Below, piece after piece: positions 9,440-50,834 of a stretch of DNA of 64,000 nucleotides. A program made the position numbers and the translations under genes. The stretch is from assembly GCA_964196455.1 (NCBI GenBank), contig CAXMUJ010000215.1:5405-69404 (forward strand), given 5' to 3'. The notes beneath the pieces were generated by a model. It made no database searches. It worked only from the letters and a program-made list of their open reading frames with translations, and had not been told where the DNA came from. The first letter of the stretch is position 1. Every line of letters begins with the position of its first letter. The stretch comes from an uncultured Myxococcota bacterium (lineage in GTDB: Bacteria; Pseudomonadota; Alphaproteobacteria; Rhodobacterales; Rhodobacteraceae).

Positions 9440-9778
9440 CTAACACATGCGCGCGCCCAAAGGGGCGTCTTTGTCTGGTCCCAATAGAACCACTTTGTTA
9501 TCCGCGTCCATCACGCCCAGAACCAGAACTTCTGATTTCACCGGCCCAATTTGTCGCGGCGGAAAATTGACGACCGCCAAAACCCGCCGTCCCACCAAAT
9601 CCGCGCGTGCGTAATGCTCGGTGATCTGGGCCGACGACTTCTTTTGCCCGATCTCGGGGCCAAAATCCACCCAGAGCTTGTAGGCCGGTTTACGCGCCTC
9701 GGGGAAGTCTTCGGCGCGGACAATCTGTCCGACCCGAATGTCGACCTTCATAAAATCGTCGAAGGTAATCTGGTCCAT
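9440..9778 (-). CDS. csaA: tRNA-binding domain protein (CsaA/YgjH-like)
   Basis: The 112-aa ORF contains FMKVDIRVGQIVRAEDFPEARKPAYKLWVDFG, typical of the CsaA-type OB-fold tRNA-binding domain. Confidence 0.8.
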   Translation of the reverse strand: MDQITFDDFMKVDIRVGQIVRAEDFPEARKPAYKLWVDFGPEIGQKKSSAQITEHYARADLVGRRVLAVVNFPPRQIGPVKSEVLVLGVMDADNKVVLLGPDKDAPLGARMC

Positions 9779-9779
9779 A

Positions 9780-10601
9780 TCAGCCCGCCAATTCGCGGCT
9801 GCGGTCGGCTGCGGCCTTGACCGCGCGGGCCATCAACTGTGACAGGCCGGTATCCGCGTCCATCAGGACGTCGAGTGCTGCTTGTGTTGTCCCGTTTGGC
9901 GATGTCACATTGACCCGCAGCTGCGACGGTGTTTCGTCGGCAACTTCGGCCAATGCACCAGAACCTGCCACTGTAGCCTTGGCCAAGGCCAGTGCCAAAT
10001 CGGGTGTCAGCCCCTGTGCCTCACCAGCAGCAGCAAGCGTTTCAATCAGGAGAAATACATAGGCAGGTCCAGACCCCGATACGGCAGTCACCGCATCCAT
10101 ATCACGCTCGGACGTCAGGTGGACAGTTTGACCGACCGCTTGCAACAGCCGGTCTGCCATTGCCATTTGGTCCGGCGTGATCCGGTCGTTGCCAACCAGT
10201 GCCGTTATACCGCGACCCACAGCCGCTGGTGTGTTCGGCATGGCACGGATAATCGGGCTGTCGGCGCCAAACGCATCCTCAAAGATCGATAGCGTGGTGC
10301 CTGCTGCGATTGACAGGAACACGGTCGAGCCGTTCCCCAATGCCCGCAAGGCCGGCAGCGCGTCGCCCATCATTTGGGGTTTTACTGCCACAACGCAAAT
10401 GGCCGGTGCCGGTGGCAGTTCGACATTCAAGCGAACACCTTCGGTCACGCGTGCCTTGACCCAGTCCGACGGATAAGGGTCAAGAATGGTAACGGCAGAT
10501 GGTATCACGCCATCAGCCAACCAGCCTTGCAGCATTGCCGAGCCCATTTTTCCGCAACCCAGCAAAACCAGACCATTTTCATTGATATGTGACAATTGCA
10601 T
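9780..10601 (-). CDS. proC: pyrroline-5-carboxylate reductase
   Basis: The 273-aa ORF has the N-terminal Rossmann motif LLGCGKMGSAMLQGW and the C-terminal motif VTSPNGTTQAAL. Confidence 0.92.
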   Translation of the reverse strand: MQLSHINENGLVLLGCGKMGSAMLQGWLADGVIPSAVTILDPYPSDWVKARVTEGVRLNVELPPAPAICVVAVKPQMMGDALPALRALGNGSTVFLSIAAGTTLSIFEDAFGADSPIIRAMPNTPAAVGRGITALVGNDRITPDQMAMADRLLQAVGQTVHLTSERDMDAVTAVSGSGPAYVFLLIETLAAAGEAQGLTPDLALALAKATVAGSGALAEVADETPSQLRVNVTSPNGTTQAALDVLMDADTGLSQLMARAVKAAADRSRELAG

Positions 10602-41513: not shown

Positions 41514-41643
41514 CGTGGGCAAAATCATTCTTCCATGTGCCAACCCATGTGCCAAGTGTCGGCAACACTCTGCGCTAGCCTAATTTCCGGTGATTGCCGA
41601 CAGAGGCTTGACGAAGCGGGTCAGCACGCGCACTAACCACACC

Positions 41644-42840
41644 ATGACAACAGAAAAAACAGATGTGCTGGTAATCGGTGCGGGTCCTGCGGGATTAATG
41701 GCGGCAGAAGTCTTGTCCAGCGCAGGCCACAGCGTTCAGGTGGTGGACGCCATGCCCTCGCCGGCGCGTAAATTCTTGATGGCTGGGAAATCCGGCCTGA
41801 ATATCACCAAGGATCAACCCATTGATGCGTTTGTCGCGCAGTTTACCACCGCGTCCGACTGGTTGACGCCGGCGTTGCGCCGTTTTGGACCGGAACAGGT
41901 GCAAGATTGGGCGCGCGGGTTGGGGATCGACTTGTTTGTGGGCTCCACTGGCCGCGTCTTTCCGGTCGAGATGAAGGCCTCGCCTTTGCTGCGCGCTTGG
42001 TTGACGCGTCTTGACGACAATGGCGTCACGCTGCGCCGGCGTTGGCGCTGGACCGGTTGGGATGGCGACACTGCCACATTTGACACGCCGGACGGCGCGG
42101 CACAGATCGACGCCAAGGCGACAATTCTTGCCTTGGGCGGTGCCAGCTGGGCGCGTCTTGGCTCGGACGGACGCTGGTTGGAAACTCTGACCGGCGCGGA
42201 TGTGGCCACTGATGCCTTTGCGCCGTCAAATGCCGGTCTGACGGTGGCATGGACTGCGCATATGGAACGGCATTTTGGTACGCCGCTCAAAAACATCGCG
42301 CTAAGGTCGGGTCAAAAATCCACCCGTGGCGAATGCATCGTCTCAAAACATGGGCTGGAGGGCGGCGGCGTATATATGCTCAGCCCCGCCGCGCGCGATG
42401 GCGCCGATATCACGCTGGACCTGTTGCCCGACATGTCAGCAGATCAAATCGCCAGCCGGCTGTTACGGCCGCAAGGCAAGCAATCGCTGACCAATTACCT
42501 GCGCAAGACGCTGCGCCTTGATCCGGTCAAAATCGCCTTGTTGCGGGAATTTGGTGGTGCGTTGCCAAGCGACGCCGCTCTTGCCAACCTGATAAAGTCA
42601 CTGCCGGTGCGCTATGACGGGCTACGTCCGATTGACGAAGCGATCTCGGTGGCGGGTGGTATTAGCCCGGACGCGATGGATGAAACCTATATGCTACGCG
42701 CTCGACCGGGTGTCTTTTGTTGTGGTGAAATGACCAGTTGGGACGCACCAACCGGTGGTTATTTGTTGACGGGTTGTTTTGCCACCGGTCATTGGGCCGG
42801 ACAGCACGCTGTTGATTGGTTGTCTCGACCAGAGGCTTAG
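41644..42840 (+). CDS. HI0933/BaiN-like flavoprotein (TIGR03862-type NAD(FAD)-utilising dehydrogenase)
   Basis: DVLVIGAGPAGLMAAEVL...FLMAGKSGLNIT...CCGEMTSWDAPTGGYLL is present. The ATG at 41644 is preferred over the track start at 41590. Confidence 0.8.
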   Translation: MTTEKTDVLVIGAGPAGLMAAEVLSSAGHSVQVVDAMPSPARKFLMAGKSGLNITKDQPIDAFVAQFTTASDWLTPALRRFGPEQVQDWARGLGIDLFVGSTGRVFPVEMKASPLLRAWLTRLDDNGVTLRRRWRWTGWDGDTATFDTPDGAAQIDAKATILALGGASWARLGSDGRWLETLTGADVATDAFAPSNAGLTVAWTAHMERHFGTPLKNIALRSGQKSTRGECIVSKHGLEGGGVYMLSPAARDGADITLDLLPDMSADQIASRLLRPQGKQSLTNYLRKTLRLDPVKIALLREFGGALPSDAALANLIKSLPVRYDGLRPIDEAISVAGGISPDAMDETYMLRARPGVFCCGEMTSWDAPTGGYLLTGCFATGHWAGQHAVDWLSRPEA

Positions 42841-42985: not shown

Positions 42986-44692
42986 TCACCGTTCTGTAAA
43001 CTTCAGCTCGATCCGGCGGTTCTGGGCGCGTGCTACGGGCGTGTCACCGAACGCGATCGGTTGAAATTCGCCAAATCCGTTGGCTGCCAGACGGTTGGCC
43101 GGAATGCCTTGGTCCTCGATCAGAAACCGGACAACCGACAGGGCGCGGGCCTGGCTCAATTCCCAGTTGTCTGCAAAAGCGCCCCGCCCGCGTACAGGAC
43201 TGTTATCTGTATGGCCGTCGACCCGCATGATCCAGTCGATACCGTCAGGAATTTGATCTCGAATATCCTGTAGGATACCGGCAATTTTGCGGATTTCTTC
43301 TTGGCCGCGTTCACCCAGATCGGCACGGCCCGGATCAAACAGAACTTCCGAGGAAAAGACAAACCGGTCACCGACAATGCGCACACCTTCACGTGCGCCC
43401 ATGATATCGCGCAGCTGAGCAAAGAACTCTGATTTGAACCGCCGCAAGTCTTTGGCCTCGGCCTCCAGTCGGGCGCGCTCTTCACGCTCGAACAGGGCGA
43501 TTTTGCGTTGTTCCGCCGCGACCTGAGCCAGCGCCGCATTCAGATTGCTGCCCAATGACTCGATTTGCACCTGCGCCTCGACATCGCGCGCGGCGGCGGC
43601 GTTCAGAACCGCTTGCAGGGCGTTAAGCTGTTGGCGCAGTTCCGCGGTTTGTTGGTTCAACAGCGCCAAACGACGCTGGCCGTCTGCTGAAATATCACGT
43701 TCCTGATCCAGCAAGCTGTTTGCCTGCGCCACCAATGCCCGCTGTTTTTCCGCTTCGGTGAGCGTTTCTGTCACATCCACCGACAAGCTATCATTGGCGG
43801 CATTGGCGGCGGCCAGCAGGGTCAGCGTATCTTCAGCTTGTTGGCGTTCAGCCTCCAGCGCCAGTTGCATCGCAGTAATCTCGTCTTGTGATCCGCGCAG
43901 CCGGTCGCGCAGCGCCGCTGCGGCGGCGGCTTCGGCCAAACGCTGTTTCTCGGTGTCGGACAATCCCGCTGCCAGCTCCTCGATCCGGGTGCGCAGATCT
44001 GCCTCGGTCGCTATTCTGGTGTCGTTTTCCAATTGGGACGCGCTCAGGGATGCCAGAGCCGAAACCAGAGTATCTTCGGTGTTGGCCACATCGGTTTGCA
44101 GATCGGCTATCATTGCCTCCAGCGCTTCGCGTTTGGCCGCCGCCAGACGCGCTTGTTCAGTTGCGACATCGATTTCACTGCGGACCTGAGCCAAAGCCAG
44201 TTGCGTTGCCTCTTTATCCGATATTTCCCGGCTCAAGTCGGCCTCGAGCTGCGCTTTGTTGGTCTCCAGCACGGCTTTGGCCACCTCCAGATCTGCCTTG
44301 CTGACCAAAAGCGACGCGACCCGTTCTTCAAAACTCGCTATCCGGGCTTGTTGATTTGCTGTCTCGGTGGTCAATGTGGCGATCAACGCAGTGTCTTGCG
44401 TGATCTTGTCTTGGGCCGATGACAAATTACCTTCCAGGGTGTCAACTTGATCCACCAAACCCTCGGCGCGCTGCTGTTCTAATCCGAGTGCAGACGCCAG
44501 ACTGCTAAGCTGCAGGTTCAAGTCCTCAAGCTCGCGGTCTTTGCCGCTAATGGTTTCACGCAATACGAACTGCACCACCATAAAAATGGTCAGCACAAAA
44601 ATCAGGACCAACAGCAACGCTGTCATCGCATCGACAAATCCGGGCCAGATATTGGCCGAGGCAGCCTTTGAAGATCGTCGCGCCAGCCCCAT
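42986..44692 (-). CDS. MotB/OmpA-family stator-like protein with a long coiled-coil linker
   Basis: The 568-aa ORF has a short N-terminus, then a single TM helix with a conserved-type Asp (IWPGFVDAMTALLLVLIFVL). About 370 residues that are proline-free and rich in Ala/Leu/Glu/Gln follow. The C-terminus is an OmpA-like peptidoglycan-binding domain (FDPGRADL...DNWELSQARALSVVRFL...NRRIELKF). Confidence 0.8.
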   Translation of the reverse strand: MGLARRSSKAASANIWPGFVDAMTALLLVLIFVLTIFMVVQFVLRETISGKDRELEDLNLQLSSLASALGLEQQRAEGLVDQVDTLEGNLSSAQDKITQDTALIATLTTETANQQARIASFEERVASLLVSKADLEVAKAVLETNKAQLEADLSREISDKEATQLALAQVRSEIDVATEQARLAAAKREALEAMIADLQTDVANTEDTLVSALASLSASQLENDTRIATEADLRTRIEELAAGLSDTEKQRLAEAAAAAALRDRLRGSQDEITAMQLALEAERQQAEDTLTLLAAANAANDSLSVDVTETLTEAEKQRALVAQANSLLDQERDISADGQRRLALLNQQTAELRQQLNALQAVLNAAAARDVEAQVQIESLGSNLNAALAQVAAEQRKIALFEREERARLEAEAKDLRRFKSEFFAQLRDIMGAREGVRIVGDRFVFSSEVLFDPGRADLGERGQEEIRKIAGILQDIRDQIPDGIDWIMRVDGHTDNSPVRGRGAFADNWELSQARALSVVRFLIEDQGIPANRLAANGFGEFQPIAFGDTPVARAQNRRIELKFTER

Positions 44693-44695
44693 TGG

Positions 44696-45904
44696 CTAGG
44701 TCTCGCCGGTGGGGTTGGACCCCGCCGCTGCTTCGCGGATCACTTGCGTCAACTGTTGCAAATCCTGACGCAGTTGCTGTGTGCTCTCGTGGCGTCCTAT
44801 GGCGATCTCTTCCAACATACGCAGCAGCTGGGTTTCTATATTTGCCAGCCGGCGGTTGGTCTCGGGGTCCGGTTCAACCGAGTGTTGAGTATCAGTGCCA
44901 GTGTTGGCAATACTTTCGCGAATTGCCTCTACAATCTGTTTTTGGCTCTCTGCTACCGCTTCGATCGCCTTTTGGCCGCCTTCTTGGGCTGCAACGCTAT
45001 AGTCTGCCATCTGCTGTAACGCTTTGGTCAAGTCGGTCGTTTGGCGATCTGACGTTGCATTCTGGTCACGCATTTCCGCCAATATGTCCTGCAATTTATC
45101 GAACTGCATCGCTGAATATTCCGCATATCCGGAAAAGCTGCCGCTTGCGCCTTGGCTTTCGTCGTTTGACGAGACACCAAGTTGGGTAATCGACGACAGC
45201 CAAACTTCTAATTCTCCGTAGAACCTGTTCTGGCCTTTGGCTGCGAAAAGCTCCAGCAAACCAACGACAAGTGATCCCGCCAAGCCCAAAAGTGATGACC
45301 CAAACGCGGTTCCCATGCCGCCCAGCTGTTCTTCCAATCCCGACATCAAATTGTCAAAAATATCCAGCGAGCTGCTGTCTTCGCCCTGCGGGGCCAGCGA
45401 CCGGATCGTGTCCACAACCGCTGGTACCGATATCGCCAACCCGTAAAATGTTCCTAAAAGTCCTAGGAAAATCAACAAATTGATAATGTATCTGGTTAAA
45501 TCTCGGGCTTCGTCCAATCGGGTCGCCACGGAATCCAGAATGGATGTCGAAGAAAAGGACGTGATTTGTTTACGTGCGCCCTTTTTGCGCAACAGCGCCG
45601 ATAAAGACGCCAACAAGCCGGGCGCTTTGACAAACTCGTGTCCAGGACGATCCAGTGCAAACCCTTCGATCCAGCTGACCGAATTGATCAGTGTCATTAC
45701 CTGCCAGAAACAGGCAACGATACCGAACAGGAACACAAGGATGATGAAACCGTTCAGATAAGGCGAGGCCAAAAATATCGGCGAGACCGCCGGATAGGCA
45801 AAGAACACACTAACGCCGGCCAATACGCAGATCAAAAGCATGACAATGATATGGTTCACCGGCTGAGTGAACTGCGGCTCTGCAGAAGTGTCGAATTTAG
45901 CCAT
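44696..45904 (-). CDS. MotA/TolQ/ExbB proton-channel family protein with a roughly 180-aa C-terminal helical tail
   Basis: The 402-aa ORF has 4 predicted TM helices. Channel-family signatures are LIFLGLLGTFYGLAISV and GMGTAFGSSLLGLAGSLVVGLLELF...NRFY. The stop TAG lies 3 nt before the ATG of the MotB-like gene. Confidence 0.8.
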   Translation of the reverse strand: MAKFDTSAEPQFTQPVNHIIVMLLICVLAGVSVFFAYPAVSPIFLASPYLNGFIILVFLFGIVACFWQVMTLINSVSWIEGFALDRPGHEFVKAPGLLASLSALLRKKGARKQITSFSSTSILDSVATRLDEARDLTRYIINLLIFLGLLGTFYGLAISVPAVVDTIRSLAPQGEDSSSLDIFDNLMSGLEEQLGGMGTAFGSSLLGLAGSLVVGLLELFAAKGQNRFYGELEVWLSSITQLGVSSNDESQGASGSFSGYAEYSAMQFDKLQDILAEMRDQNATSDRQTTDLTKALQQMADYSVAAQEGGQKAIEAVAESQKQIVEAIRESIANTGTDTQHSVEPDPETNRRLANIETQLLRMLEEIAIGRHESTQQLRQDLQQLTQVIREAAAGSNPTGET

Positions 45905-46068
45905 TTGGATATATGTCCTGCTCGTGTTAAAGCCTTATAAACGAGGACAATACAGTCGAAGTCCAGATATTCCAACGGGTAACTTCTCTTCTAGCGCCGG
46001 ATCGCTTATTCACTTGAAAAACTGGACTAGAATGTCCAAATACAGCTTAAACATTAGGAGCAAGTCAT

Positions 46069-47013
46069 ATGACACCATTGGGTTTGGGTGCAGGGTCAGG
46101 GTCAATTGCGGCGCTGGTTTTTCTAATATTCGCGGTCATTCTGATTTACATGTCGGTAAAATCAGTTCCCCAAGGGGAGGAGTTCACCGTCGAGCGGTTT
46201 GGCCGATATACGCGCACGCTCTCGCCGGGGCTGCATTTCCTTGTGCCGATCATGGACAAACTGGGCGCCAAAATCAATATGATGGAAACTGTTCTCGATA
46301 TCGACAGTCAGGAAGTCATCACCAAAGACAACGCGATGGTAATGACCGATGCGGTGACGTTTTATCAGGTTGTTGATGCCGCCAAGGCGGCTTACGAGGT
46401 GCGCGATATGCGCCGCGCCCTGTCCAATCTGACCCAAACAAATATCCGGTCCGTTCTCGGGTCGATGGATCTGGACGAAAGCTTGTCGAACCGCGAGTCG
46501 ATTAATGCCAAACTTTTGCACGTGATTGATGATGCAGCCCATCCCTGGGGCATCAAAGTCACGCGGGTCGAGATCAAAGATCTGGCACCACCACCGGACA
46601 TTAACGAAGCAATGGCCCGCCAAATGAAGGCCGAACGAAACAAACGCGCTGAAATCCTGAATGCCGAAGGTCACAAACAAGCGGCAATTTTGAACGCCGA
46701 AGGCGAGCGCGAGGCGCAAATCAGGTCTGCCGAAGGACGCCGCGAAGCTGCATTTCTGGACGCGGAAGCCCGCGAAAGATCAGCCGAGGCCGAAGCCAAG
46801 GCAACCCAAATGGTCTCCAAGGCGATTGCAGAGGGCGATATTCAGGCTGTTAACTATTTTGTGGCACAAAAATACACCGAAGCCCTGCGCGACATTGCGT
46901 CGGCAGACAATACCAAGACCATCATGATTCCGCTCGAAGCGTCAAGCCTGTTGGGATCAATTTCCGGCATCGCCGAAATCGCCAAAGCTGTTACCGGCAA
47001 AAGCGACAAATAG
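46069..47013 (+). CDS. SPFH/Band-7 (stomatin/QmcA-like) membrane protein
   Basis: An N-terminal TM helix is followed by VPQGEEFTVERFGRYTRTLSPGLHFLVP...ITKDNAMV...VTRVEIKDL and an Ala/Glu/Arg-rich coiled coil. An AGGAG Shine-Dalgarno lies upstream. Confidence 0.9.
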   Translation: MTPLGLGAGSGSIAALVFLIFAVILIYMSVKSVPQGEEFTVERFGRYTRTLSPGLHFLVPIMDKLGAKINMMETVLDIDSQEVITKDNAMVMTDAVTFYQVVDAAKAAYEVRDMRRALSNLTQTNIRSVLGSMDLDESLSNRESINAKLLHVIDDAAHPWGIKVTRVEIKDLAPPPDINEAMARQMKAERNKRAEILNAEGHKQAAILNAEGEREAQIRSAEGRREAAFLDAEARERSAEAEAKATQMVSKAIAEGDIQAVNYFVAQKYTEALRDIASADNTKTIMIPLEASSLLGSISGIAEIAKAVTGKSDK

Positions 47014-47062
47014 TCGAGGGGCGGAACACGCGCCGGAACCGGCCCGAAAGGAAGGACCAAGT

Positions 47063-47515
47063 ATGCAATTTCTCGTAGGCATTTCTCCGTGGTGGTGGGT
47101 TGCGTTTGCTTTGGCGCTGGGTGCGATCGAAATGACCACTATGTCGTTCTTCCTGATTTGGCCGGCTTTGGCGGCGCTGTGTCTGGGCGTACTGCTGGCC
47201 ATCTTGCCGGACCTGTCCGGAACTGCCCAGATCGTCATATTTGCGGCCCTTGGGATCGCGTTTACCTTTATCGGCAGATATCTGATGTCACGCTTCGGCG
47301 ACGGGGCCGAGCTGGCACCGACACTCAATCAGCGCGGCAACCACTTTGTTGGTCGCACAGGCAAGGTGCTGGAATTCGCCTCGGGTCAAGGTGTGATCGA
47401 AGTGGAAGGCATGCAATGGCGCGCCAACTGGCCCGAAGGTAAAACAGCAGAGATCGGCGCCAAGGTGCGTATCGTCAAGGCCGACGGCATGACGCTGCAT
47501 GTGGAAACAACCTAG
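47063..47515 (+). CDS. NfeD family protein (short YbbJ-like form)
   Basis: The 150-aa ORF has N-terminal TM helices plus a C-terminal OB-like GRTGKVLE...GVIEVEGMQWRA...KVRIVKADGMTLHV. Confidence 0.8.
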   Translation: MQFLVGISPWWWVAFALALGAIEMTTMSFFLIWPALAALCLGVLLAILPDLSGTAQIVIFAALGIAFTFIGRYLMSRFGDGAELAPTLNQRGNHFVGRTGKVLEFASGQGVIEVEGMQWRANWPEGKTAEIGAKVRIVKADGMTLHVETT

Positions 47516-47542: not shown

Positions 47543-48079
47543 CTAGCCTGCGCGAATCTCCAGAACCCGCGCTGACAACCACGTCAAATCCGGATCTTCC
47601 AGACCAAGCTGCGTTAAATGTGTGGCCGTGTTCAGCAGGTAATCCACGTTCGGCCCGCGCCCACCGCGTGCTGTGGCGATGATCTGGGCCTGTTCCTCGA
47701 GAAGCAGCGAGCAATATTGGTCATGATCGCGATCGACAACATAGCTCACCGCATCTACGTGCCGGCCATCGCGCAACTGGATCGGCAGAACCAGTTCCAG
47801 ATAGGCAGACGACACCAGTTCACGTTCGCGCAACGCCGCTATTGTCGCTGTGGCTAAATCCGGTGGCACAAAAAACGCAACCCCATCACATGTACTGTTG
47901 CCAGCATCCAGCGCCAGGACCAGACCGGGATCTTTGACGGTCCCGCGGTGATGGATAGAGCGCATACAAAAACTGCGAGCGTAGCCGTGCAGTCGGGCAA
48001 TATGTCGCTCGGAATAGTCGAACTCCGGCTGCCAAACCAGAGATCCATAGCCAAAAACCCAAAAACCGTTGATGTGCAT
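47543..48079 (-). CDS. chaC: ChaC family gamma-glutamylcyclotransferase
   Basis: FWVFGYGSLVWQPEF...LHGYARSFC...GLVLALD is present. The ATG at 48079 is preferred because the longer track ORF would overlap the next gene's start. Confidence 0.85.
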   Translation of the reverse strand: MHINGFWVFGYGSLVWQPEFDYSERHIARLHGYARSFCMRSIHHRGTVKDPGLVLALDAGNSTCDGVAFFVPPDLATATIAALRERELVSSAYLELVLPIQLRDGRHVDAVSYVVDRDHDQYCSLLLEEQAQIIATARGGRGPNVDYLLNTATHLTQLGLEDPDLTWLSARVLEIRAG

Positions 48080-48146
48080 CGTATTCTTCCTATAGTGCCC
48101 GACATCTATAGCCATGACTGGCACGAAATTAAAAGGGTGAGTAAAC

Positions 48147-49148
48147 ATGCGTGCACTAATTGTGGCGATACTGGTGGCCGCGACGGGTTGGTCCGGTTTT
48201 TGGGTTCTTGGATCCGGGGCTCAGCAATCCGCCATTCAGACATGGCTGGATGATCGCGCCGAGGATGGCTGGGTTGCAAATTATGACGAGGTTACGGTTG
48301 CGGGCTTCCCCAACCGGTTCGACAGCACGGTCTCGGATTTACAGCTCGCAGACCCGAAATACGGCTGGTCATGGTCCGCACCGCATTTCAATATCATGCA
48401 ACTCAGCTATCAACCCAACCATTTCATTGCCGTCTGGCCGAAAACGCAGAGCCTGTCATCGCCAAATGGCACCACGATCATCACTGCCCAAGACATCCGC
48501 GCCAGTCTGGTAGTTGAGCCCGACAGTCGGCTGGCGCTGGACCGGGCCACAGTCACCCTGTCTGACCTGCATCTGAAAGGTGAAGGCGGCTGGGAAAGTG
48601 CAATTGGTCAGGCCGTTCTGGCCTCAAAACAATCAGAGACCGAGCCATTCGCCCATGATATCGCCCTGTCTGCCCAAGATGTTGTTCCGTCCGCAGCCTT
48701 TAAATCGCAATTTGATCCGAGCGGGACGTTGCCATCACAGTTTGAAACGCTGGAAATTCAGACAACGGCGGCCTTTGACGGCCCATGGGATCTGGTCGCA
48801 ATAGAGGGCAAAAAACCGGTTTTGTCACGAATGGATCTGGACAAGTTTGTCGCAAAATGGGGAGACTTGGACCTAAGAGCCACAGGCTCGGTCGAAATCG
48901 ATGCCCAAGGCTATCCCACCGGCGCGCTGGATATCAAAGCAAAGAATTGGCAGAAAATTCTTGATCTGGCAGTCGCGTCAGGGGCAATAACAGCGGATGT
49001 TTCGGGCATGCTGTCAACCGGTCTGGGCCTGTTGGCACTGCTGTCAGGCGACCAGAATACACTGAATGTGCCATTGAACTTCAGCAACAAGGTGATGAGC
49101 TTGGGGCCTATTCCGATCGGCGACGCGCCGCGACTGATGTGGAACTAG
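48147..49148 (+). CDS. exported/membrane-anchored hypothetical protein (DUF2125-like)
   Basis: The 333-aa ORF has an N-terminal hydrophobic anchor MRALIVAILVAATGWSGFWVL. The DUF2125 assignment is from memory of alphaproteobacterial homologues. Confidence 0.5.
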   Translation: MRALIVAILVAATGWSGFWVLGSGAQQSAIQTWLDDRAEDGWVANYDEVTVAGFPNRFDSTVSDLQLADPKYGWSWSAPHFNIMQLSYQPNHFIAVWPKTQSLSSPNGTTIITAQDIRASLVVEPDSRLALDRATVTLSDLHLKGEGGWESAIGQAVLASKQSETEPFAHDIALSAQDVVPSAAFKSQFDPSGTLPSQFETLEIQTTAAFDGPWDLVAIEGKKPVLSRMDLDKFVAKWGDLDLRATGSVEIDAQGYPTGALDIKAKNWQKILDLAVASGAITADVSGMLSTGLGLLALLSGDQNTLNVPLNFSNKVMSLGPIPIGDAPRLMWN

Positions 49149-49933
49149 CGGCAATACGCACCGCTGCGGTACCGTGCCGTGTCAAAATGAAAGTGATCGC
49201 GGTGATGAACATCGGACCGGGGCCCCAAAACCGTGCCAAAAGCTCCGCAGGCAGATTTATGGAGCCGCTTGAGTTTGGACCCGTAGCGTGCGCTGTTCCA
49301 GTCTTTGAGCACCGTAATAGATGCCCCGTTTCGCAGCCCAAACCCCGAAATATCGATCGCATGCCCCTTGGCATGTTCCGAGATTTTGGCGCCCTTGCGA
49401 CTGTTTCGGGTTCGACATGAATAACTTGCAGCAACCCGCAACGCGCTGAGCCCGCCGCCGTGGCTTCGCAACACCGGTTCGGCGGCGTTAACCACCCATT
49501 TGTGCAATGCTTTGGCCGTTGAGCAGTCAATAGTGGCCGCAGTGCTGAGCTTGATGCCGGCCACAGACGTGACCCGCACCGGATTTTTGATGCCACAACC
49601 GACTGTTTTTGCAGAAAACCCCTTCAGGGTTGCGCCACGAATTGCGCGCACACCACAAACCGATCCTTTGCGCCGAAATTTTTTCTTGGGCGGCTGTACT
49701 GCGCTCAGGTGCAATTTAGCGGGGCGCGGACGCGGGACCAACGAGACCCGAACGCCGCCGCCGCGCCCTTGATCGGCAACAATCGCTTTGACAACTGTGC
49801 CGCTGATGCCAACGGCTGCCGGTCTGGGCTTGGGAATGAGCGACACAACGGGTGCATCCGCCAACACCGGCCCCGACAGGCGAAAAATAACAGCGATCCC
49901 CAACAGAAACAGTTTAAGGTTTCTTGGTTCCAC
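49145..49933 (-). CDS. extensin-like C-terminal domain protein (predicted M15/LAS-type zinc peptidase fold), secreted
   Basis: The C-terminus CGIKNPVRV...SEHAKGHAIDISGF...HHRDHFHFD contains the SxHxxGxAxD motif. A signal-like LKLFLLGIAVIFRLSGPVLA follows the GTG at 49933, and the ATG at 49969 is also possible. The track start at 50101 lies deep inside tyrC. Confidence 0.72.
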   Translation of the reverse strand: MEPRNLKLFLLGIAVIFRLSGPVLADAPVVSLIPKPRPAAVGISGTVVKAIVADQGRGGGVRVSLVPRPRPAKLHLSAVQPPKKKFRRKGSVCGVRAIRGATLKGFSAKTVGCGIKNPVRVTSVAGIKLSTAATIDCSTAKALHKWVVNAAEPVLRSHGGGLSALRVAASYSCRTRNSRKGAKISEHAKGHAIDISGFGLRNGASITVLKDWNSARYGSKLKRLHKSACGAFGTVLGPRSDVHHRDHFHFDTARYRSGAYCR

Positions 49934-50834
49934 GACCGAAATCCGCGGCGTCGGTATCTTGGCCCGCATCGATGATGCCGCGCCGGATGGCCCGTGTGCG
50001 GGTAAAGTAGTCAAACAATTGATCGCCGTCACCGCGCCGGATGGCACGTTGCAAATCGAACAGTTCTTCGGTGAACCGGCCCAGAATTTCCAGCGTTGCA
50101 TCCTTGTTGTTTAGGAAAACATCGCGCCACATGGTAGGGTCTGATGCAGCGATGCGGGTAAAGTCGCGGAAACCCGCCGCCGAATAATTCACAACCTCGC
50201 TGTCAGTGACCCGGTGCAGGTCATCGGCCACCCCGACCATCGTATAGGCAATCAGGTGTGGCACATGCGATGTCACCGACAATACCAGATCGTGGTGCTG
50301 CGGGTCCATTTCCGACGTGTTGGAGCCAACACCCTGCCAGAGCGCTTCCAGTTTTTTGATCTCGGCGGGGTCTGTCCCCTCTAATGGCGTCAACAGACAC
50401 CAACGGTTTTCAAACAGTTCAGCAAAGCCCGAAGTCGGACCGGATTTTTCCGTACCGGCCAACGGGTGCGCCGGAATAAAGAGGGCATCGTCGGGCAAAT
50501 GCGGGCAAACGGCGTCAATGATCGCCTGTTTTACCGAACCTACATCAGTGACAACAGCACCGGCTTTCAAATGCGGTGCGATCCCTGCCATAACCGGCCC
50601 CATCACACCGACCGGCACGCACAAAACCACCAGATCAGCATTGTTGACCGCCTCGGCGGCAGTTTCACAAATGCTGTCGCACAGATCAATGTCGATGGCC
50701 GTCTGACGCGACGCGGCCGACTTGGCATAGCCAACCACTTCGCCGGCCAGCCCGTGTTTGCGCATCGCCAGCGACAACGACCCGGCAATAAGTCCCAGCC
50801 CGATCAACGCGACCTTGTCATAAATAACAGCCAT
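49914..50834 (-). CDS. tyrC: prephenate/arogenate dehydrogenase
   Basis: VALIGLGLIAGSLSLAM (Rossmann fold) and AHPLAGTEKSG are present, and the gene is cotranscribed with hisC. Confidence 0.88.
   Translation of the reverse strand: MAVIYDKVALIGLGLIAGSLSLAMRKHGLAGEVVGYAKSAASRQTAIDIDLCDSICETAAEAVNNADLVVLCVPVGVMGPVMAGIAPHLKAGAVVTDVGSVKQAIIDAVCPHLPDDALFIPAHPLAGTEKSGPTSGFAELFENRWCLLTPLEGTDPAEIKKLEALWQGVGSNTSEMDPQHHDLVLSVTSHVPHLIAYTMVGVADDLHRVTDSEVVNYSAAGFRDFTRIAASDPTMWRDVFLNNKDATLEILGRFTEELFDLQRAIRRGDGDQLFDYFTRTRAIRRGIIDAGQDTDAADFGRGTKKP

What the first reader, a model, noticed from the sequence alone, without database searches (positions are those of the whole stretch)
42986..45904. Orphan MotA/MotB-type ion-channel pair with no recognisable output partner, a candidate stand-alone 5:2-type motor
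Seen directly: two minus-strand genes are translationally coupled (TAG-CCA-ATG at 44698-44690). The upstream product (402 aa) has four TM helices and the channel signatures of the MotA/TolQ/ExbB family (LGLLGTFYGLAISV; GMGTAFGSSLLGLAGSLVVGLLELF...NRFY). The downstream product (568 aa) has a short N-terminus and a single TM helix carrying an Asp in the context WPGFVDAMTALLLVLIF. That corresponds to the position of the ion-coupling Asp of MotB/ExbD/TolR/ZorB. It also has a C-terminal OmpA-like peptidoglycan-binding domain (DNWELSQARALSVVRFL, NRRIELKF). Established: such A/B pairs form ion-driven rotary or power-stroke units, including the flagellar stator, Ton, Tol, gliding motors and the Zorya anti-phage system, and each works with dedicated partner proteins. 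Nowhere in the 64 kb is there a flagellar, TonB, TolA/Pal, gliding or Zorya effector-like (ZorC/D/E/F/G) gene, and the operon contains only these two genes. Inference: this is a stator-like energiser whose output is either built into its own unusual extensions (see the next two findings) or encoded elsewhere. Its function cannot be read from context.
Basis: partly seen in the sequence, partly recalled or inferred. Interest (0 to 1): 0.8.

Follow-up and report, generated by a model that had tools for sequence, protein, structure and literature searches.

The report
Uncharacterised Zorya-like membrane motor gene pair
Two coupled genes encode a very divergent relative of the ion-driven membrane motors that power flagella, nutrient import and one phage-defence system; the pair sits in the core chromosome of many Alphaproteobacteria, fits none of the studied motor classes, and I found no study of what it does.

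Summary
A (402 aa, 44696-45904, minus strand) and B (568 aa, 42986-44692, minus strand) are real genes joined by TAG-CCA-ATG.

**A subunit.** A has four predicted membrane helices with near-invariant GLLGTF and AF(S/G)SSL(L/F)G motifs. Its AlphaFold model matches only ExbB, TolQ and ZorA well; MotA is a distant 50th. Pfam MotA_ExbB stays below threshold. The only profile hits are weak ZorA models.

**B subunit.** B has a membrane helix with an Asp (WPGFVD) present in 88 of 88 orthologues examined. It also has a proline-free coiled coil of 393 aa (169-854 aa across the family) and a fixed OmpA-like domain. It is an equivalog of NCBIfam NF006542 (PRK09039, "peptidoglycan-binding protein", no known function).

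**Distribution.** The pair lies in conserved housekeeping synteny in 80 of 80 Rhodobacterales loci. It also occurs in Hyphomicrobiales and Rhodospirillales. It was not found on true plasmids or viral contigs, and never next to flagellar, Ton, Tol or Zorya effector genes.

**Caveat.** In five of seven contexts outside Rhodobacterales, a third gene precedes A. It encodes a secreted, proline-rich, OmpA-like protein.

**Reading.** This is most likely a distinct, uncharacterised clade of proton-driven 5:2-type motors with ZorAB-like architecture and a housekeeping envelope role. My literature searches found no characterised member.

The parts
44696..45904 (-). Gene A (402 aa): divergent A subunit of the MotA/TolQ/ExbB superfamily
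   Evidence: ORF. More than 8000 homologues. AF2 model pLDDT 83.6, above 90 over residues 10-240. Foldseek top hits are ExbB, TolQ and ZorA. Weak PADLOC ZorA3/ZorA1 hits, E 6.5e-9. PF01618 is sub-threshold in 21 of 21 core sequences.
45686..45850 (-). A TM1 (about residues 19-41) and TM2 (about residues 51-73), a helical hairpin with a short periplasmic turn
   Evidence: Model helices H16-46 and H48-83. Hydrophobic stretches read from the sequence. Topology is inferred from the charge distribution of the loops.
45416..45487 (-). A TM3 (about residues 140-163) with the GLLGTF motif (148-153). Thr152 is the candidate ion-path residue.
   Evidence: G148, L149, L150, G151, T152, F153, G155 and L156 are invariant in 97 diverse homologues. 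This motif is the only segment hhalign aligns to ExbB and TolQ. ZorA Thr147 plays this role in Zorya (PMC11946911).
45239..45316 (-). A TM4 (about residues 197-222) with the AFGSSLLGL motif. Ser203/Ser204 are candidate ion-path residues.
   Evidence: A200, F201, S204, G207 and L208 are invariant in 97 homologues. The analogue in ZorA is Ser184.
44699..45238 (-). A cytoplasmic tail (residues 223-402): a flexible Gly/Ser linker of about 240-257, then helices 258-335 and 347-395
   Evidence: AF2 secondary structure, with pLDDT 49-83 in this region. Heptad periodicity is z=3.6 above shuffles.
44720..44866 (-). Conserved tip helix of the A tail (residues 347-395); candidate interaction surface
   Evidence: L353, E365, E366, R371, R379 and L385 are invariant in the 21-sequence Rhodobacterales alignment. 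The motif D..R..LR.ID..L.R..EE...GR.....ELR is kept in the family consensus.
44690..44698 (-). A stop / B start junction TAG-CCA-ATG (translational coupling)
   Evidence: Sequence. The gap is -1 to +12 nt in the 71 Rhodobacterales loci measured, and 0-4 nt in most.
42986..44692 (-). Gene B (568 aa): B subunit, member of NCBIfam NF006542 (PRK09039.1-1 'peptidoglycan-binding protein')
   Evidence: 728.7 bits against a cut-off of 388. PADLOC ZorB3 E 6.7e-26.
44561..44647 (-). B membrane helix (about residues 16-44), WPGFVDAMTALLLVLIFVLTIFMVV
   Evidence: This is the most conserved 20-residue block of B (0.84 identity). The N-terminal 79 aa align colinearly, but weakly, to ZorB3 (E 4e-5). There is no Pfam MotB_plug match.
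44630..44632 (-). Codon of B Asp21, the candidate proton-carrying Asp
   Evidence: GAT read. The WPGFVD motif is present in 80 of 80 Rhodobacterales loci, in 7 of 7 loci from other orders, and in the window.
43379..44557 (-). B periplasmic coiled-coil linker (residues 46-438; 393 aa, no proline)
   Evidence: Composition is A/L/E/Q/R-rich with 0 Pro. Heptad contrast is z=7.8 above shuffles. Length is 169-854 aa across the family. Conserved islands lie at 161-200, 241-300 and 341-440.
42989..43378 (-). B C-terminal OmpA-like peptidoglycan-binding domain (residues 439-568)
   Evidence: Pfam PF00691 at 451-559, E 3e-17. Length is constant at 128-131 aa across 78 orthologues. BLASTP to the E. coli MotB peptidoglycan-binding region gives E 5e-6.

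Best explanation
A and B most likely assemble into a proton-driven complex of the 5:2 type (A5B2), forming a separate, uncharacterised clade of the MotA/TolQ/ExbB superfamily with ZorAB-like architecture.

Proposed mechanism:
- A dimer of B sits inside a ring of A.
- B Asp21 takes protons that pass A Thr152 and Ser203/204.
- B is fixed to peptidoglycan by its OmpA-like domains, which sit at the end of a long dimeric coiled coil.
- Proton flow then turns, or power-strokes, the A ring relative to B.
- The output is not a flagellar rotor, TonB, TolA or a Zorya nuclease. It is carried by the pair's own extensions: the conserved tip of the A cytoplasmic tail (towards an unknown cytoplasmic partner encoded elsewhere), the B periplasmic coiled coil, or both.

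The pair is a core-genome, vertically inherited unit across Alphaproteobacteria. I therefore infer a housekeeping role in the cell envelope, such as sensing or maintaining the link between inner membrane and peptidoglycan.

Shown here: the gene pair, its conservation, the fold class, the invariant Asp, Thr and Ser residues, the OmpA domain, the coiled coils, and the housekeeping, non-mobile context.

Inferred: the stoichiometry, proton coupling, rotation, the output route and the envelope function.
For: - **Fold.** The AF2 model (pLDDT 83.6) matches ExbB (5zfp, 5sv0; probability 1.0; target-normalised TM-score 0.53-0.57), TolQ and ZorA (8vvn, 8qyh). MotA (6ykm) ranks only 50th.
- **Sequence.** GLLGTF and AF.SS..GL are invariant in 97 homologues. 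PF01618 is sub-threshold in 21 of 21 core sequences. The only significant profile hits are ZorA for A and ZorB for B, including B's N-terminal membrane-helix region.
- **B subunit.** The WPGFVD Asp is present in 88 of 88 orthologues. B has an OmpA domain.
- **Pairing.** A and B are adjacent in all 87 other loci, and 0-4 nt apart in most of the 71 measured.
- **Extensions.** Coiled-coil periodicity is z=7.8 for the B linker and z=3.6 for the A tail. The tail tip is conserved.
- **Housekeeping context.** Synteny DUF2125-ChaC-A-B-ClpA is conserved across Rhodobacterales. Other orders have efp-suhB-(U)-A-B-rpmE. No true plasmid carries the pair and no viral contig does.
- **Role of the residues.** The role of these Asp, Thr and Ser residues in 5:2 motors is established for ZorAB (PMC11946911).
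Against: - No experiment or multimer model supports the 5:2 assembly here.
- Sequence similarity to every solved motor is marginal. Profile searches of the PDB find none. The Foldseek E-values are only about 1e-2.
- The A tail joins TM4 through a low-confidence Gly/Ser linker (pLDDT below 50 at 250-257). It is not a continuous rigid helix as in ZorA, which makes it a poor rotating shaft.
- A straight B coiled coil would measure about 25-127 nm (169-854 aa at about 0.148 nm per residue). For most family members this is longer than my rough figure for periplasm width (about 20-30 nm, general knowledge). The geometry of peptidoglycan anchoring is therefore unclear.
- The envelope role rests on context and domains only.
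- The sole regulatory hint is weak. A ChvI-bound DNA fragment lies inside SMc03993, which I infer from gene order to be the S. meliloti orthologue of A.
Confidence: 0.6

Rival explanations
1. It is an accessory flagellar stator (a MotAB/PomAB-type unit) whose rotor genes lie elsewhere in the genome. This is what NCBI's name 'flagellar motor protein MotA' for many orthologues implies.
For: Orthologues in Rhodospirillales and Hyphomicrobiales MAGs carry the name 'flagellar motor protein MotA'. B has an OmpA-type peptidoglycan-binding domain, as MotB does. A has four predicted membrane helices with both ends inside the cell, like MotA.
Against: No MotA NCBIfam model hits A at E<=0.1. All MotB, MotD and MotS models score far below their cut-offs on B, for example MotD at 99.6 bits against 283. 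MotA is only the 50th fold match (E 0.25, TM-score 0.38), behind ExbB, TolQ and ZorA. hhalign against E. coli MotA is not significant. The cytoplasmic loop between TM2 and TM3 is only about 65 residues, so there is no large torque-generating domain (criterion from PMC12505986). There is no Pfam MotB_plug match. No flagellar gene lies near the pair in 88 loci. A Rhodobacterales genome (Thioclava) has separate 290-aa 'flagellar motor stator protein MotA' genes.
Confidence: 0.04
2. It is a Ton- or Tol-like energiser. The pair would power an outer-membrane or division process through a separately encoded TonB/TolA-like transducer. Alternatively, B itself would act as a fused TolR, TolA and Pal-like tether.
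For: ExbB and TolQ are the best fold matches, and the GLLGT motif aligns to them. B's long helical periplasmic region recalls TolA domain II, and its OmpA domain recalls Pal. In other orders an adjacent secreted, proline-rich, OmpA-like protein (U) could be a periplasmic partner.
Against: B carries no Pfam domain other than OmpA, and its membrane-helix region matches ZorB profiles rather than any ExbD/TolR model. No TonB, TolA, TolB, Pal or TonB-dependent receptor gene lies near the pair in any of 88 loci. U is absent from the window and from all 80 Rhodobacterales loci.
Confidence: 0.15
3. It is an anti-phage module related to Zorya: a ZorAB core whose effectors are encoded elsewhere or are not yet recognised.
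For: ZorA and ZorB are the only profiles that detect both subunits. The architecture is the same: an A subunit with a cytoplasmic helical tail, and a B subunit with a membrane-helix Asp and a peptidoglycan-binding domain (PMC11946911).
Against: NCBIfam ZorA models score 15-17 bits against cut-offs of 100-500. No ZorC/D/E/F/G-like hit appears in the ten neighbouring proteins. The pair occupies a fixed place in housekeeping synteny in 80 of 80 Rhodobacterales loci, and a second fixed place in other orders. That is the opposite of a defence island. It is absent from true plasmids and from viral contigs. The A tail is about 180 aa, against the roughly 70 nm tail of ZorA.
Confidence: 0.05
4. It is a passive structural tether between inner membrane and peptidoglycan that descends from a motor but no longer conducts ions.
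For: The B linker is very long and variable in length (169-854 aa), which is odd for a torque-bearing stator. The A tail is flexibly linked. Similarity to working motors is marginal.
Against: The residues needed only for ion coupling are the most conserved in both proteins. Asp21 is present in 88 of 88 orthologues. GLLGTF and AF.SS..GL are invariant across homologues down to 27% identity. The B membrane helix is the best-conserved block of the protein.
Confidence: 0.1

Closest known systems
ZorAB, the membrane core of the Zorya anti-phage system (PDB 8qyd, 8vvn; PMC11946911)
   Same: The A subunit has an ExbB-like membrane core, a Thr and Ser pair in the ion path, and a helical cytoplasmic tail. 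The B subunit has a short N-terminus, a membrane-helix Asp, no Pfam MotB_plug match and an OmpA-type peptidoglycan-binding domain. ZorA and ZorB are the only profiles that detect both proteins.
   Different: Scores are far below family cut-offs. There are no ZorC/D/E/F/G genes. The context is core-genome, syntenic and non-mobile. The tail is about 180 aa and flexibly attached, whereas ZorA has a roughly 70 nm continuous pentameric tail. B carries a coiled coil of 169-854 aa that I did not see described for ZorB in the passages read. A has an extra N-terminal membrane helix.
ExbB-ExbD and TolQ-TolR (Ton and Tol-Pal energisers; PDB 5sv0, 5zfp, 8odt)
   Same: These are the best fold matches for A residues about 20-240. 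They share the GLLGT.WG motif and have a compact cytoplasmic domain.
   Different: B has an OmpA domain and a coiled coil, and no other Pfam domain was detected. No TonB, TolA, TolB or Pal genes are nearby. A has four membrane helices rather than three. PF01618 scores only sub-threshold.
MotAB/PomAB flagellar stators (PDB 6ykm)
   Same: A has four membrane helices with both ends in the cytoplasm. B has a membrane-helix Asp followed by an OmpA-like peptidoglycan-binding domain. The A and B genes are adjacent and coupled.
   Different: There is no large cytoplasmic torque-generating domain, no Pfam MotB_plug match and no flagellar context. MotA is a poor fold match, and no MotA or MotB family model passes its cut-off.
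GldLM and AglRQS gliding / type IX secretion motors
   Same: They are non-flagellar 5:2-type motors. In GldM, the B-like subunit carries a long periplasmic extension that transmits the output (general knowledge; PMC9389320 was listed but not read).
   Different: No sequence or fold match to GldL or GldM was returned. The B extension here is a coiled coil ending in a peptidoglycan-binding domain, not a chain of GldM-type domains reaching an outer-membrane partner. The taxa here are not Bacteroidota or Myxococcota.
NCBIfam PRK09039 family 'peptidoglycan-binding protein' (NF006542-NF006546)
   Same: B is a full-length member (728.7 bits against a cut-off of 388). Orthologues in other orders hit NF006543.
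   Different: This is a naming family only. It carries no function. The partner A subunit has no curated family at all.

Membership tests
MotA/TolQ/ExbB superfamily (A subunit of 5:2 motors) | Pfam PF01618 match at or above the gathering score | tested here: not met
   No hit at E<=0.1 for full-length A. The core alone scores 14.1 bits against a cut-off of 22.9. Sub-threshold hits occur in 21 of 21 family cores, best E 3e-6.
MotA/TolQ/ExbB superfamily (A subunit of 5:2 motors) | Fold of the membrane core shared with solved A subunits | tested here: met
   The top 48 Foldseek hits are all ExbB, TolQ or ZorA chains (probability 0.91-1.0, 1.0 for the best; target-normalised TM-score up to 0.57). 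E-values are modest, about 1e-2.
MotA/TolQ/ExbB superfamily (A subunit of 5:2 motors) | Conserved G..GT and (A)..(S/T)(S/T)..G motifs in the last two membrane helices | tested here: met
   GLLGTF and AF.SS..GL are invariant in 97 homologues. The first motif aligns to ExbB and TolQ.
MotA/TolQ/ExbB superfamily (A subunit of 5:2 motors) | Adjacent B gene with a single membrane helix carrying an Asp | tested here: met
   88 of 88 loci.
MotA/TolQ/ExbB superfamily (A subunit of 5:2 motors) | A5B2 stoichiometry and ion-driven movement | not testable with these tools
   No multimer prediction or experiment was available.
Flagellar stator MotAB/PomAB | MotA and MotB family models above their cut-offs | tested here: not met
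   No MotA model hits A. MotB, MotD and MotS models score 52-100 bits on B against cut-offs of 250-312.
Flagellar stator MotAB/PomAB | Large cytoplasmic torque-generating domain in A, and a plug after the membrane helix of B | tested here: not met
   The TM2-TM3 loop is only about 65 aa. There is no PF13677 match. The criterion is from PMC12505986.
Flagellar stator MotAB/PomAB | Presence only in flagellated organisms, or co-occurrence with flagellar genes | not tested
   No flagellar gene lies in the window or within 10 kb in 87 loci. Whole-genome co-occurrence could not be computed.
ExbBD / TolQR | B subunit with an ExbD/TolR-type periplasmic domain | tested here: not met
   The only Pfam domain found in B is OmpA.
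ExbBD / TolQR | TonB, or TolA/TolB/Pal, encoded with the pair | tested here: not met
   Absent from the window and from 87 related loci.
Zorya (ZorAB plus effectors) | ZorA and ZorB family models | tested here: inconclusive
   PADLOC gives ZorA3 E 6.5e-9 and ZorB3 E 6.7e-26, and PADLOC models carry no curated cut-off. NCBIfam ZorA scores 15.2 bits against a cut-off of 500.
Zorya (ZorAB plus effectors) | Adjacent effector genes (ZorC/D, ZorE, ZorF/G) | tested here: not met
   No Zor effector hit in ten neighbouring proteins. The neighbours are housekeeping genes.
Zorya (ZorAB plus effectors) | Long continuous ZorA tail (about 70 nm) | tested here: not met
   The tail is about 180 aa, in two helices of 78 and 49 aa after a flexible linker. 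The comparison is with PMC11946911.
NCBIfam NF006542 (PRK09039.1-1) peptidoglycan-binding protein | Whole-protein score above the curated cut-off | tested here: met
   728.7 bits against 388.

The most novel reading that the evidence does not exclude
The pair defines a further functional class of 5:2 ion-driven motors. It would be a housekeeping sister of Zorya's ZorAB, vertically inherited across Alphaproteobacteria, that uses proton flow and a peptidoglycan anchor on a long coiled-coil leash to monitor or act on the cell envelope. Its output would go through its own A-subunit tail, or through the B coiled coil acting as a torsional element, rather than through any known partner. If so, phage-defence ZorAB and this system may share an origin.
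Probability: 0.3. Interest if true: 0.8.

Novelty: new variant of a known kind. Interest (0 to 1): 0.62.

Why it matters
The 5:2 motors I know of from the literature form a short list of classes: flagellar MotAB/PomAB, Ton, Tol, gliding and type IX secretion, and Zorya. Each class revealed a different way of turning the membrane ion gradient into work. Here a pair with the hallmark residues intact is a fixed part of the core chromosome in Rhodobacterales. It also occurs in Hyphomicrobiales (including Sinorhizobium) and Rhodospirillales. Yet the A subunit has no curated family, the names assigned to it are contradictory, and my literature searches found no study of it. The system is testable in tractable species, using a deletion plus an Asp21-to-Asn mutant. 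It could show what a ZorAB-like motor does when it is not a defence system. It would also correct the misleading 'flagellar motor protein MotA' and 'ExbB' annotations carried by many orthologues.

Tried and rejected
- **First AF2 model.** The 21-sequence alignment gave pLDDT 55.6, which is unusable. I replaced it with a 97-sequence alignment.
- **PDB profile searches.** Searching with full-length A returned only coiled-coil noise. Searching with the core alone returned nothing relevant.
- **CtrA control.** A near-CtrA box (TTTA-N7-TTAAC) lies 35 nt upstream of A in the window. However, 0 of 66 related loci have TTAA-N7-TTAA upstream of the operon, so I rejected this idea.
- **Mobile or defence origin.** tblastn against plasmids found five records, all chromosomes of 3.5-4.6 Mb filed as plasmids. 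A scan of viral contigs found none.
- **Rfam.** No RNA family was found anywhere in the window. No sigma-70-like promoter was found around the pair. Tandem repeats in the B gene are negligible.
- **Literature.** The terms covered PRK09039, stator-like and ZorAB-like, MotA/TolQ/ExbB plus OmpA/MotB, and locus tags. No characterised member turned up. Four papers did not concern this pair: S. meliloti Rgs/Tol-Pal, Rhodobacter CenKR, Caulobacter ChvGI and Thioclava Tn-seq.
- **Thioclava Tn-seq.** The 'peptidoglycan-binding protein' AKL02_01280 is not the B orthologue, because its upstream gene encodes an AMP-binding protein. The stored table is truncated.
- **S. meliloti Tn-seq.** The stored tables do not include the inferred orthologues SMc03993 and SMc03992.
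- **ChaC as a partner.** I rejected ChaC as a family-wide partner. It is upstream only in Rhodobacterales, and in this window it is separated from A by an inserted SPFH/NfeD pair.

Full report
**1.

The minus strand carries two long ORFs: A at 44696-45904 (402 aa) and B at 42986-44692 (568 aa). They are joined by TAG-CCA-ATG at 44698-44690. Genes on the plus strand flank the pair on both sides: an HI0933-like flavoprotein at 41590-42840, and an SPFH/Band_7 plus NfeD pair at 46069-47515. In this window the unit therefore has exactly two genes.

I read all ORFs of 180-200 aa or more in the 64 kb. They give a housekeeping chromosome segment. By my reading of the translations it includes pabB, carB, lgt, trxB, purK, groEL, ribF, prs, the ATP synthase F1 genes, clpA, tyrA, hisC, priA, xerC and ileS. 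There is no flagellar, Ton, Tol, gliding or Zorya effector gene. Pfam on nine neighbours and PADLOC on ten neighbours agree with this. GC content is even across the window, and Rfam finds nothing.

**2. What the two proteins are**

*A subunit.* Full-length A has no Pfam hit at E<=0.1 and no NCBIfam hit above cut-off. Only weak ZorA profiles detect it: PADLOC ZorA3 at E 6.5e-9 over residues 136-337, and NCBIfam ZorA_4 at 15 bits against a cut-off of 500.

A shallow alignment gave an unusable structure model (pLDDT 55.6). A 97-sequence alignment, reaching down to 27% identity, gave a good one: pLDDT 83.6, and above 90 for residues 10-240.

Foldseek against the PDB returns only ExbB, TolQ and ZorA chains in its first 48 ranks (probability 0.91-1.0, 1.0 for the best; target-normalised TM-score up to 0.57). 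MotA (6ykm) is 50th, with E 0.25 and TM-score 0.38.

At the sequence level the link is thin but consistent:
- hhalign of the family profile against E. coli ExbB and TolQ aligns only the GLLGT motif (E 2.9e-4 and 8.9e-4).
- E. coli MotA is not significant.
- The core region alone gives sub-threshold PF01618 hits in 21 of 21 family members (best 3e-6; the window protein scores 14.1 bits against a cut-off of 22.9).
- Profile searches of PDB sequences find no motor subunit.

The motifs GLLGTF (148-153, in TM3) and AF.SS..GL (200-208, in TM4) are invariant across the 97 sequences. In ZorAB, the equivalent Thr147 and Ser184 flank the essential ZorB Asp26 and form the ion-selectivity filter (PMC11946911).

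From the charge distribution I infer four membrane helices with both ends in the cytoplasm. The TM2-TM3 loop is basic, and the TM3-TM4 loop is acidic. The cytoplasmic domain is compact, at about 65 aa. Residues 223-402 form a tail: a low-confidence Gly/Ser linker, then helices 258-335 and 347-395. The tail has heptad periodicity (z=3.6). Its last helix is well conserved.

*B subunit.* B is a full-length equivalog of NCBIfam NF006542 (PRK09039.1-1, 'peptidoglycan-binding protein'), at 728.7 bits against a cut-off of 388. This family has no assigned function. All MotB, MotD and MotS models fall far below their cut-offs. Pfam sees only OmpA, at residues 451-559.

The N-terminal 79 residues give no MotB_plug match. 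They align colinearly, though weakly, with ZorB profiles (ZorB3 E 4e-5).

Between the membrane helix and the OmpA-like domain lie 393 residues without a single proline. They are rich in Ala, Leu, Glu, Gln and Arg, with strong heptad periodicity (z=7.8).

**3. Conservation and context**

In every one, A is followed by the N-terminus of B carrying WPGFVD. In the 71 loci measured, the gap between the two genes is -1 to +12 nt, and 0-4 nt in most.

B length runs from 435 to 1028 aa. The OmpA part stays at 128-131 aa, and the membrane helix is the best-conserved block of the protein.

Synteny is strongly conserved: DUF2125 (69 of 80), a ChaC-like gene directly upstream on the same strand (72 of 80), then A and B, then clpA convergent (54 of 80). 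The SPFH/NfeD insertion seen in the window occurs in only 7 loci.

*Breadth.* A profile of A finds 2886 clusters (at the 50% identity level) at E<=1e-3 and 588 at E<=1e-30. More distant members come from Rhodospirillales, Hyphomicrobiales and Minwuiales assemblies. NCBI names them 'flagellar motor protein MotA', whereas Rhodobacterales members are named 'biopolymer transporter ExbB'.

*Other orders.* Seven contexts outside Rhodobacterales all keep the A-B pair. In one of them B is split by a frameshift. They sit in a different housekeeping neighbourhood: efp (absent in S. meliloti), then suhB, then A and B, with an MFS or ABC transporter and rpmE usually downstream.

Five of the seven have a third gene, U, directly upstream of A. 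U encodes a signal peptide, a long proline-rich spacer and a C-terminal OmpA-like domain. It matches no specific curated family. U is absent from S. meliloti, from the window, and from within 10 kb of A in all 80 Rhodobacterales loci.

*Mobility.* The pair was not found on any true plasmid. The five PLSDB hits are Sinorhizobium and Shinella chromosomes filed as plasmids. It was not found on any viral contig either.

**4. How it most likely works**

The best-conserved residues in both proteins are those needed for ion coupling in 5:2 motors. The fold is that of the non-flagellar A subunits. The two genes are always coupled. I therefore take the pair to be a working proton-driven A5B2-type complex.

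B would be anchored to peptidoglycan through its OmpA-like domains, and A would move around it. The output cannot be any of the known ones, because none is encoded nearby in 88 loci and the interfaces that define them are missing. There is no torque domain or plug, no TonB or TolA, and no Zor effector.

The candidates for output are the pair's own extensions: the conserved tip of the A tail, and the B coiled coil.

The stoichiometry, the proton coupling, the movement and the envelope role are all inferences.

Two features do not fit a simple rotary stator. First, the A tail hangs on a flexible linker. Second, a straight B coiled coil would measure about 58 nm here and 25-127 nm across the family (at 0.148 nm per residue). 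For most members that exceeds my rough figure for periplasm width. The coiled coil must therefore lie along the wall, fold back on itself, or act as a leash or torsion element.

There is one faint regulatory hint. In S. meliloti the orthologues are, by gene order, SMc03993 and SMc03992 (suhB is smc03994 and rpmE is smc03990). A DNA fragment inside SMc03993 was bound by ChvI, the response regulator of the ExoS/ChvI system, in a gel-shift screen (PMC3687685).

**5. Comparison with known systems**

In architecture and by profile, the pair is closest to ZorAB. By fold, it is closest to ExbB, TolQ and ZorA. It fails defining tests for every characterised class; the details are in the membership table:
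- flagellar stator: family models, torque domain, plug and context all fail;
- Ton and Tol: B domain type and partner genes fail;
- Zorya: effectors, tail length, family cut-offs and mobile context fail.

It does belong to the function-less PRK09039 family.

A recent survey of MotAB relatives reported that B subunits of the non-flagellar group lack the OmpA-homologous peptidoglycan-binding motif. That survey left ZorAB out of its phylogeny (PMC12505986). An ExbB-like A paired with an OmpA-type B, as here, matches the Zorya pattern rather than the Exb/Tol pattern.

**6. Verdict**

- the pair is Zor/Exb-like rather than Mot-like;
- the family is widespread and already named in databases, though inconsistently;
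- a third conserved gene accompanies the pair in some other orders.

It is a new variant of a known kind: an uncharacterised, core-genome clade of 5:2-type motors. Interest is moderately high because the function is open and directly testable. It is tempered because the mechanism class is familiar and all functional statements remain inference.

Noticed in passing
L087 6781-7956; L088 6783-7919; L089 6960-7958; also L081 about 9571-9870 and L082 about 9562-9870: Outside Rhodobacterales, a third gene (U) lies directly upstream of A. It encodes a signal peptide, a conserved V(S/T)VDLSV motif, a long proline-rich spacer and a C-terminal OmpA-like domain. It matches no specific curated family. It is absent from the window, from 80 Rhodobacterales loci and from S. 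meliloti.
   Followed up: partly
window 47543-48148 (-) and 46069-47515 (+): A ChaC-like gene lies directly upstream of A on the same strand in 72 of 80 Rhodobacterales loci. The distance from the end of the ChaC match to the A start has a median of 87 nt. In this window, and in 7 of the 80 loci, an SPFH/Band_7 plus NfeD pair on the opposite strand is inserted between ChaC and A.
   Followed up: partly
window 43379-44557 (-) and B orthologues in L001-L090: The coiled-coil linker of B varies from 169 aa (S. meliloti) to 854 aa, while the membrane helix and the OmpA domain stay fixed. Conserved islands lie inside the linker, at window B residues 161-200, 241-300 and 341-440.
   Followed up: partly
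homologues of A: Public names for orthologues of A are inconsistent: 'biopolymer transporter ExbB', 'flagellar motor protein MotA' and 'MotA/TolQ/ExbB proton channel family protein'. No NCBIfam or Pfam model passes its cut-off for A.
   Followed up: yes
L090 (CP090106.1 3078163-3093095): PLSDB holds replicons of 3.5-4.6 Mb from Sinorhizobium and Shinella that are evidently chromosomes but are filed as plasmids. For example, CP090106.1 is labelled 'pSymB' at 3.72 Mb, yet it carries purE/purK, rpmE and ykgO.
   Followed up: no
S. meliloti SMc03993 (PMC3687685): A 256-bp fragment inside SMc03993 was bound by ChvI, the response regulator of the ExoS/ChvI system, in a gel-shift screen. I infer from gene order that SMc03993 is the orthologue of A.
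   Followed up: partly
window 48147-49148 (+) and 49145-50101 (-): A DUF2125 protein and a protein with a signal peptide, a proline-rich region and an Extensin-like_C domain are conserved next to the ChaC-A-B block (69 and 54 of 80 loci). This may only reflect general synteny within the order.
   Followed up: no
window about 45933-45948 (-): TTTATAAGGCTTTAAC, one mismatch from a CtrA box (TTAA-N7-TTAAC), lies about 35 nt upstream of the A start codon. No full box occurs upstream of the operon in 66 related loci.
   Followed up: yes
L083 11160-12165: In one Rhodospirillales MAG, B is split into two overlapping ORFs: an N-terminal part carrying WPGFVD and a C-terminal part carrying the OmpA domain. 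This is a frameshift or an assembly error.
   Followed up: no
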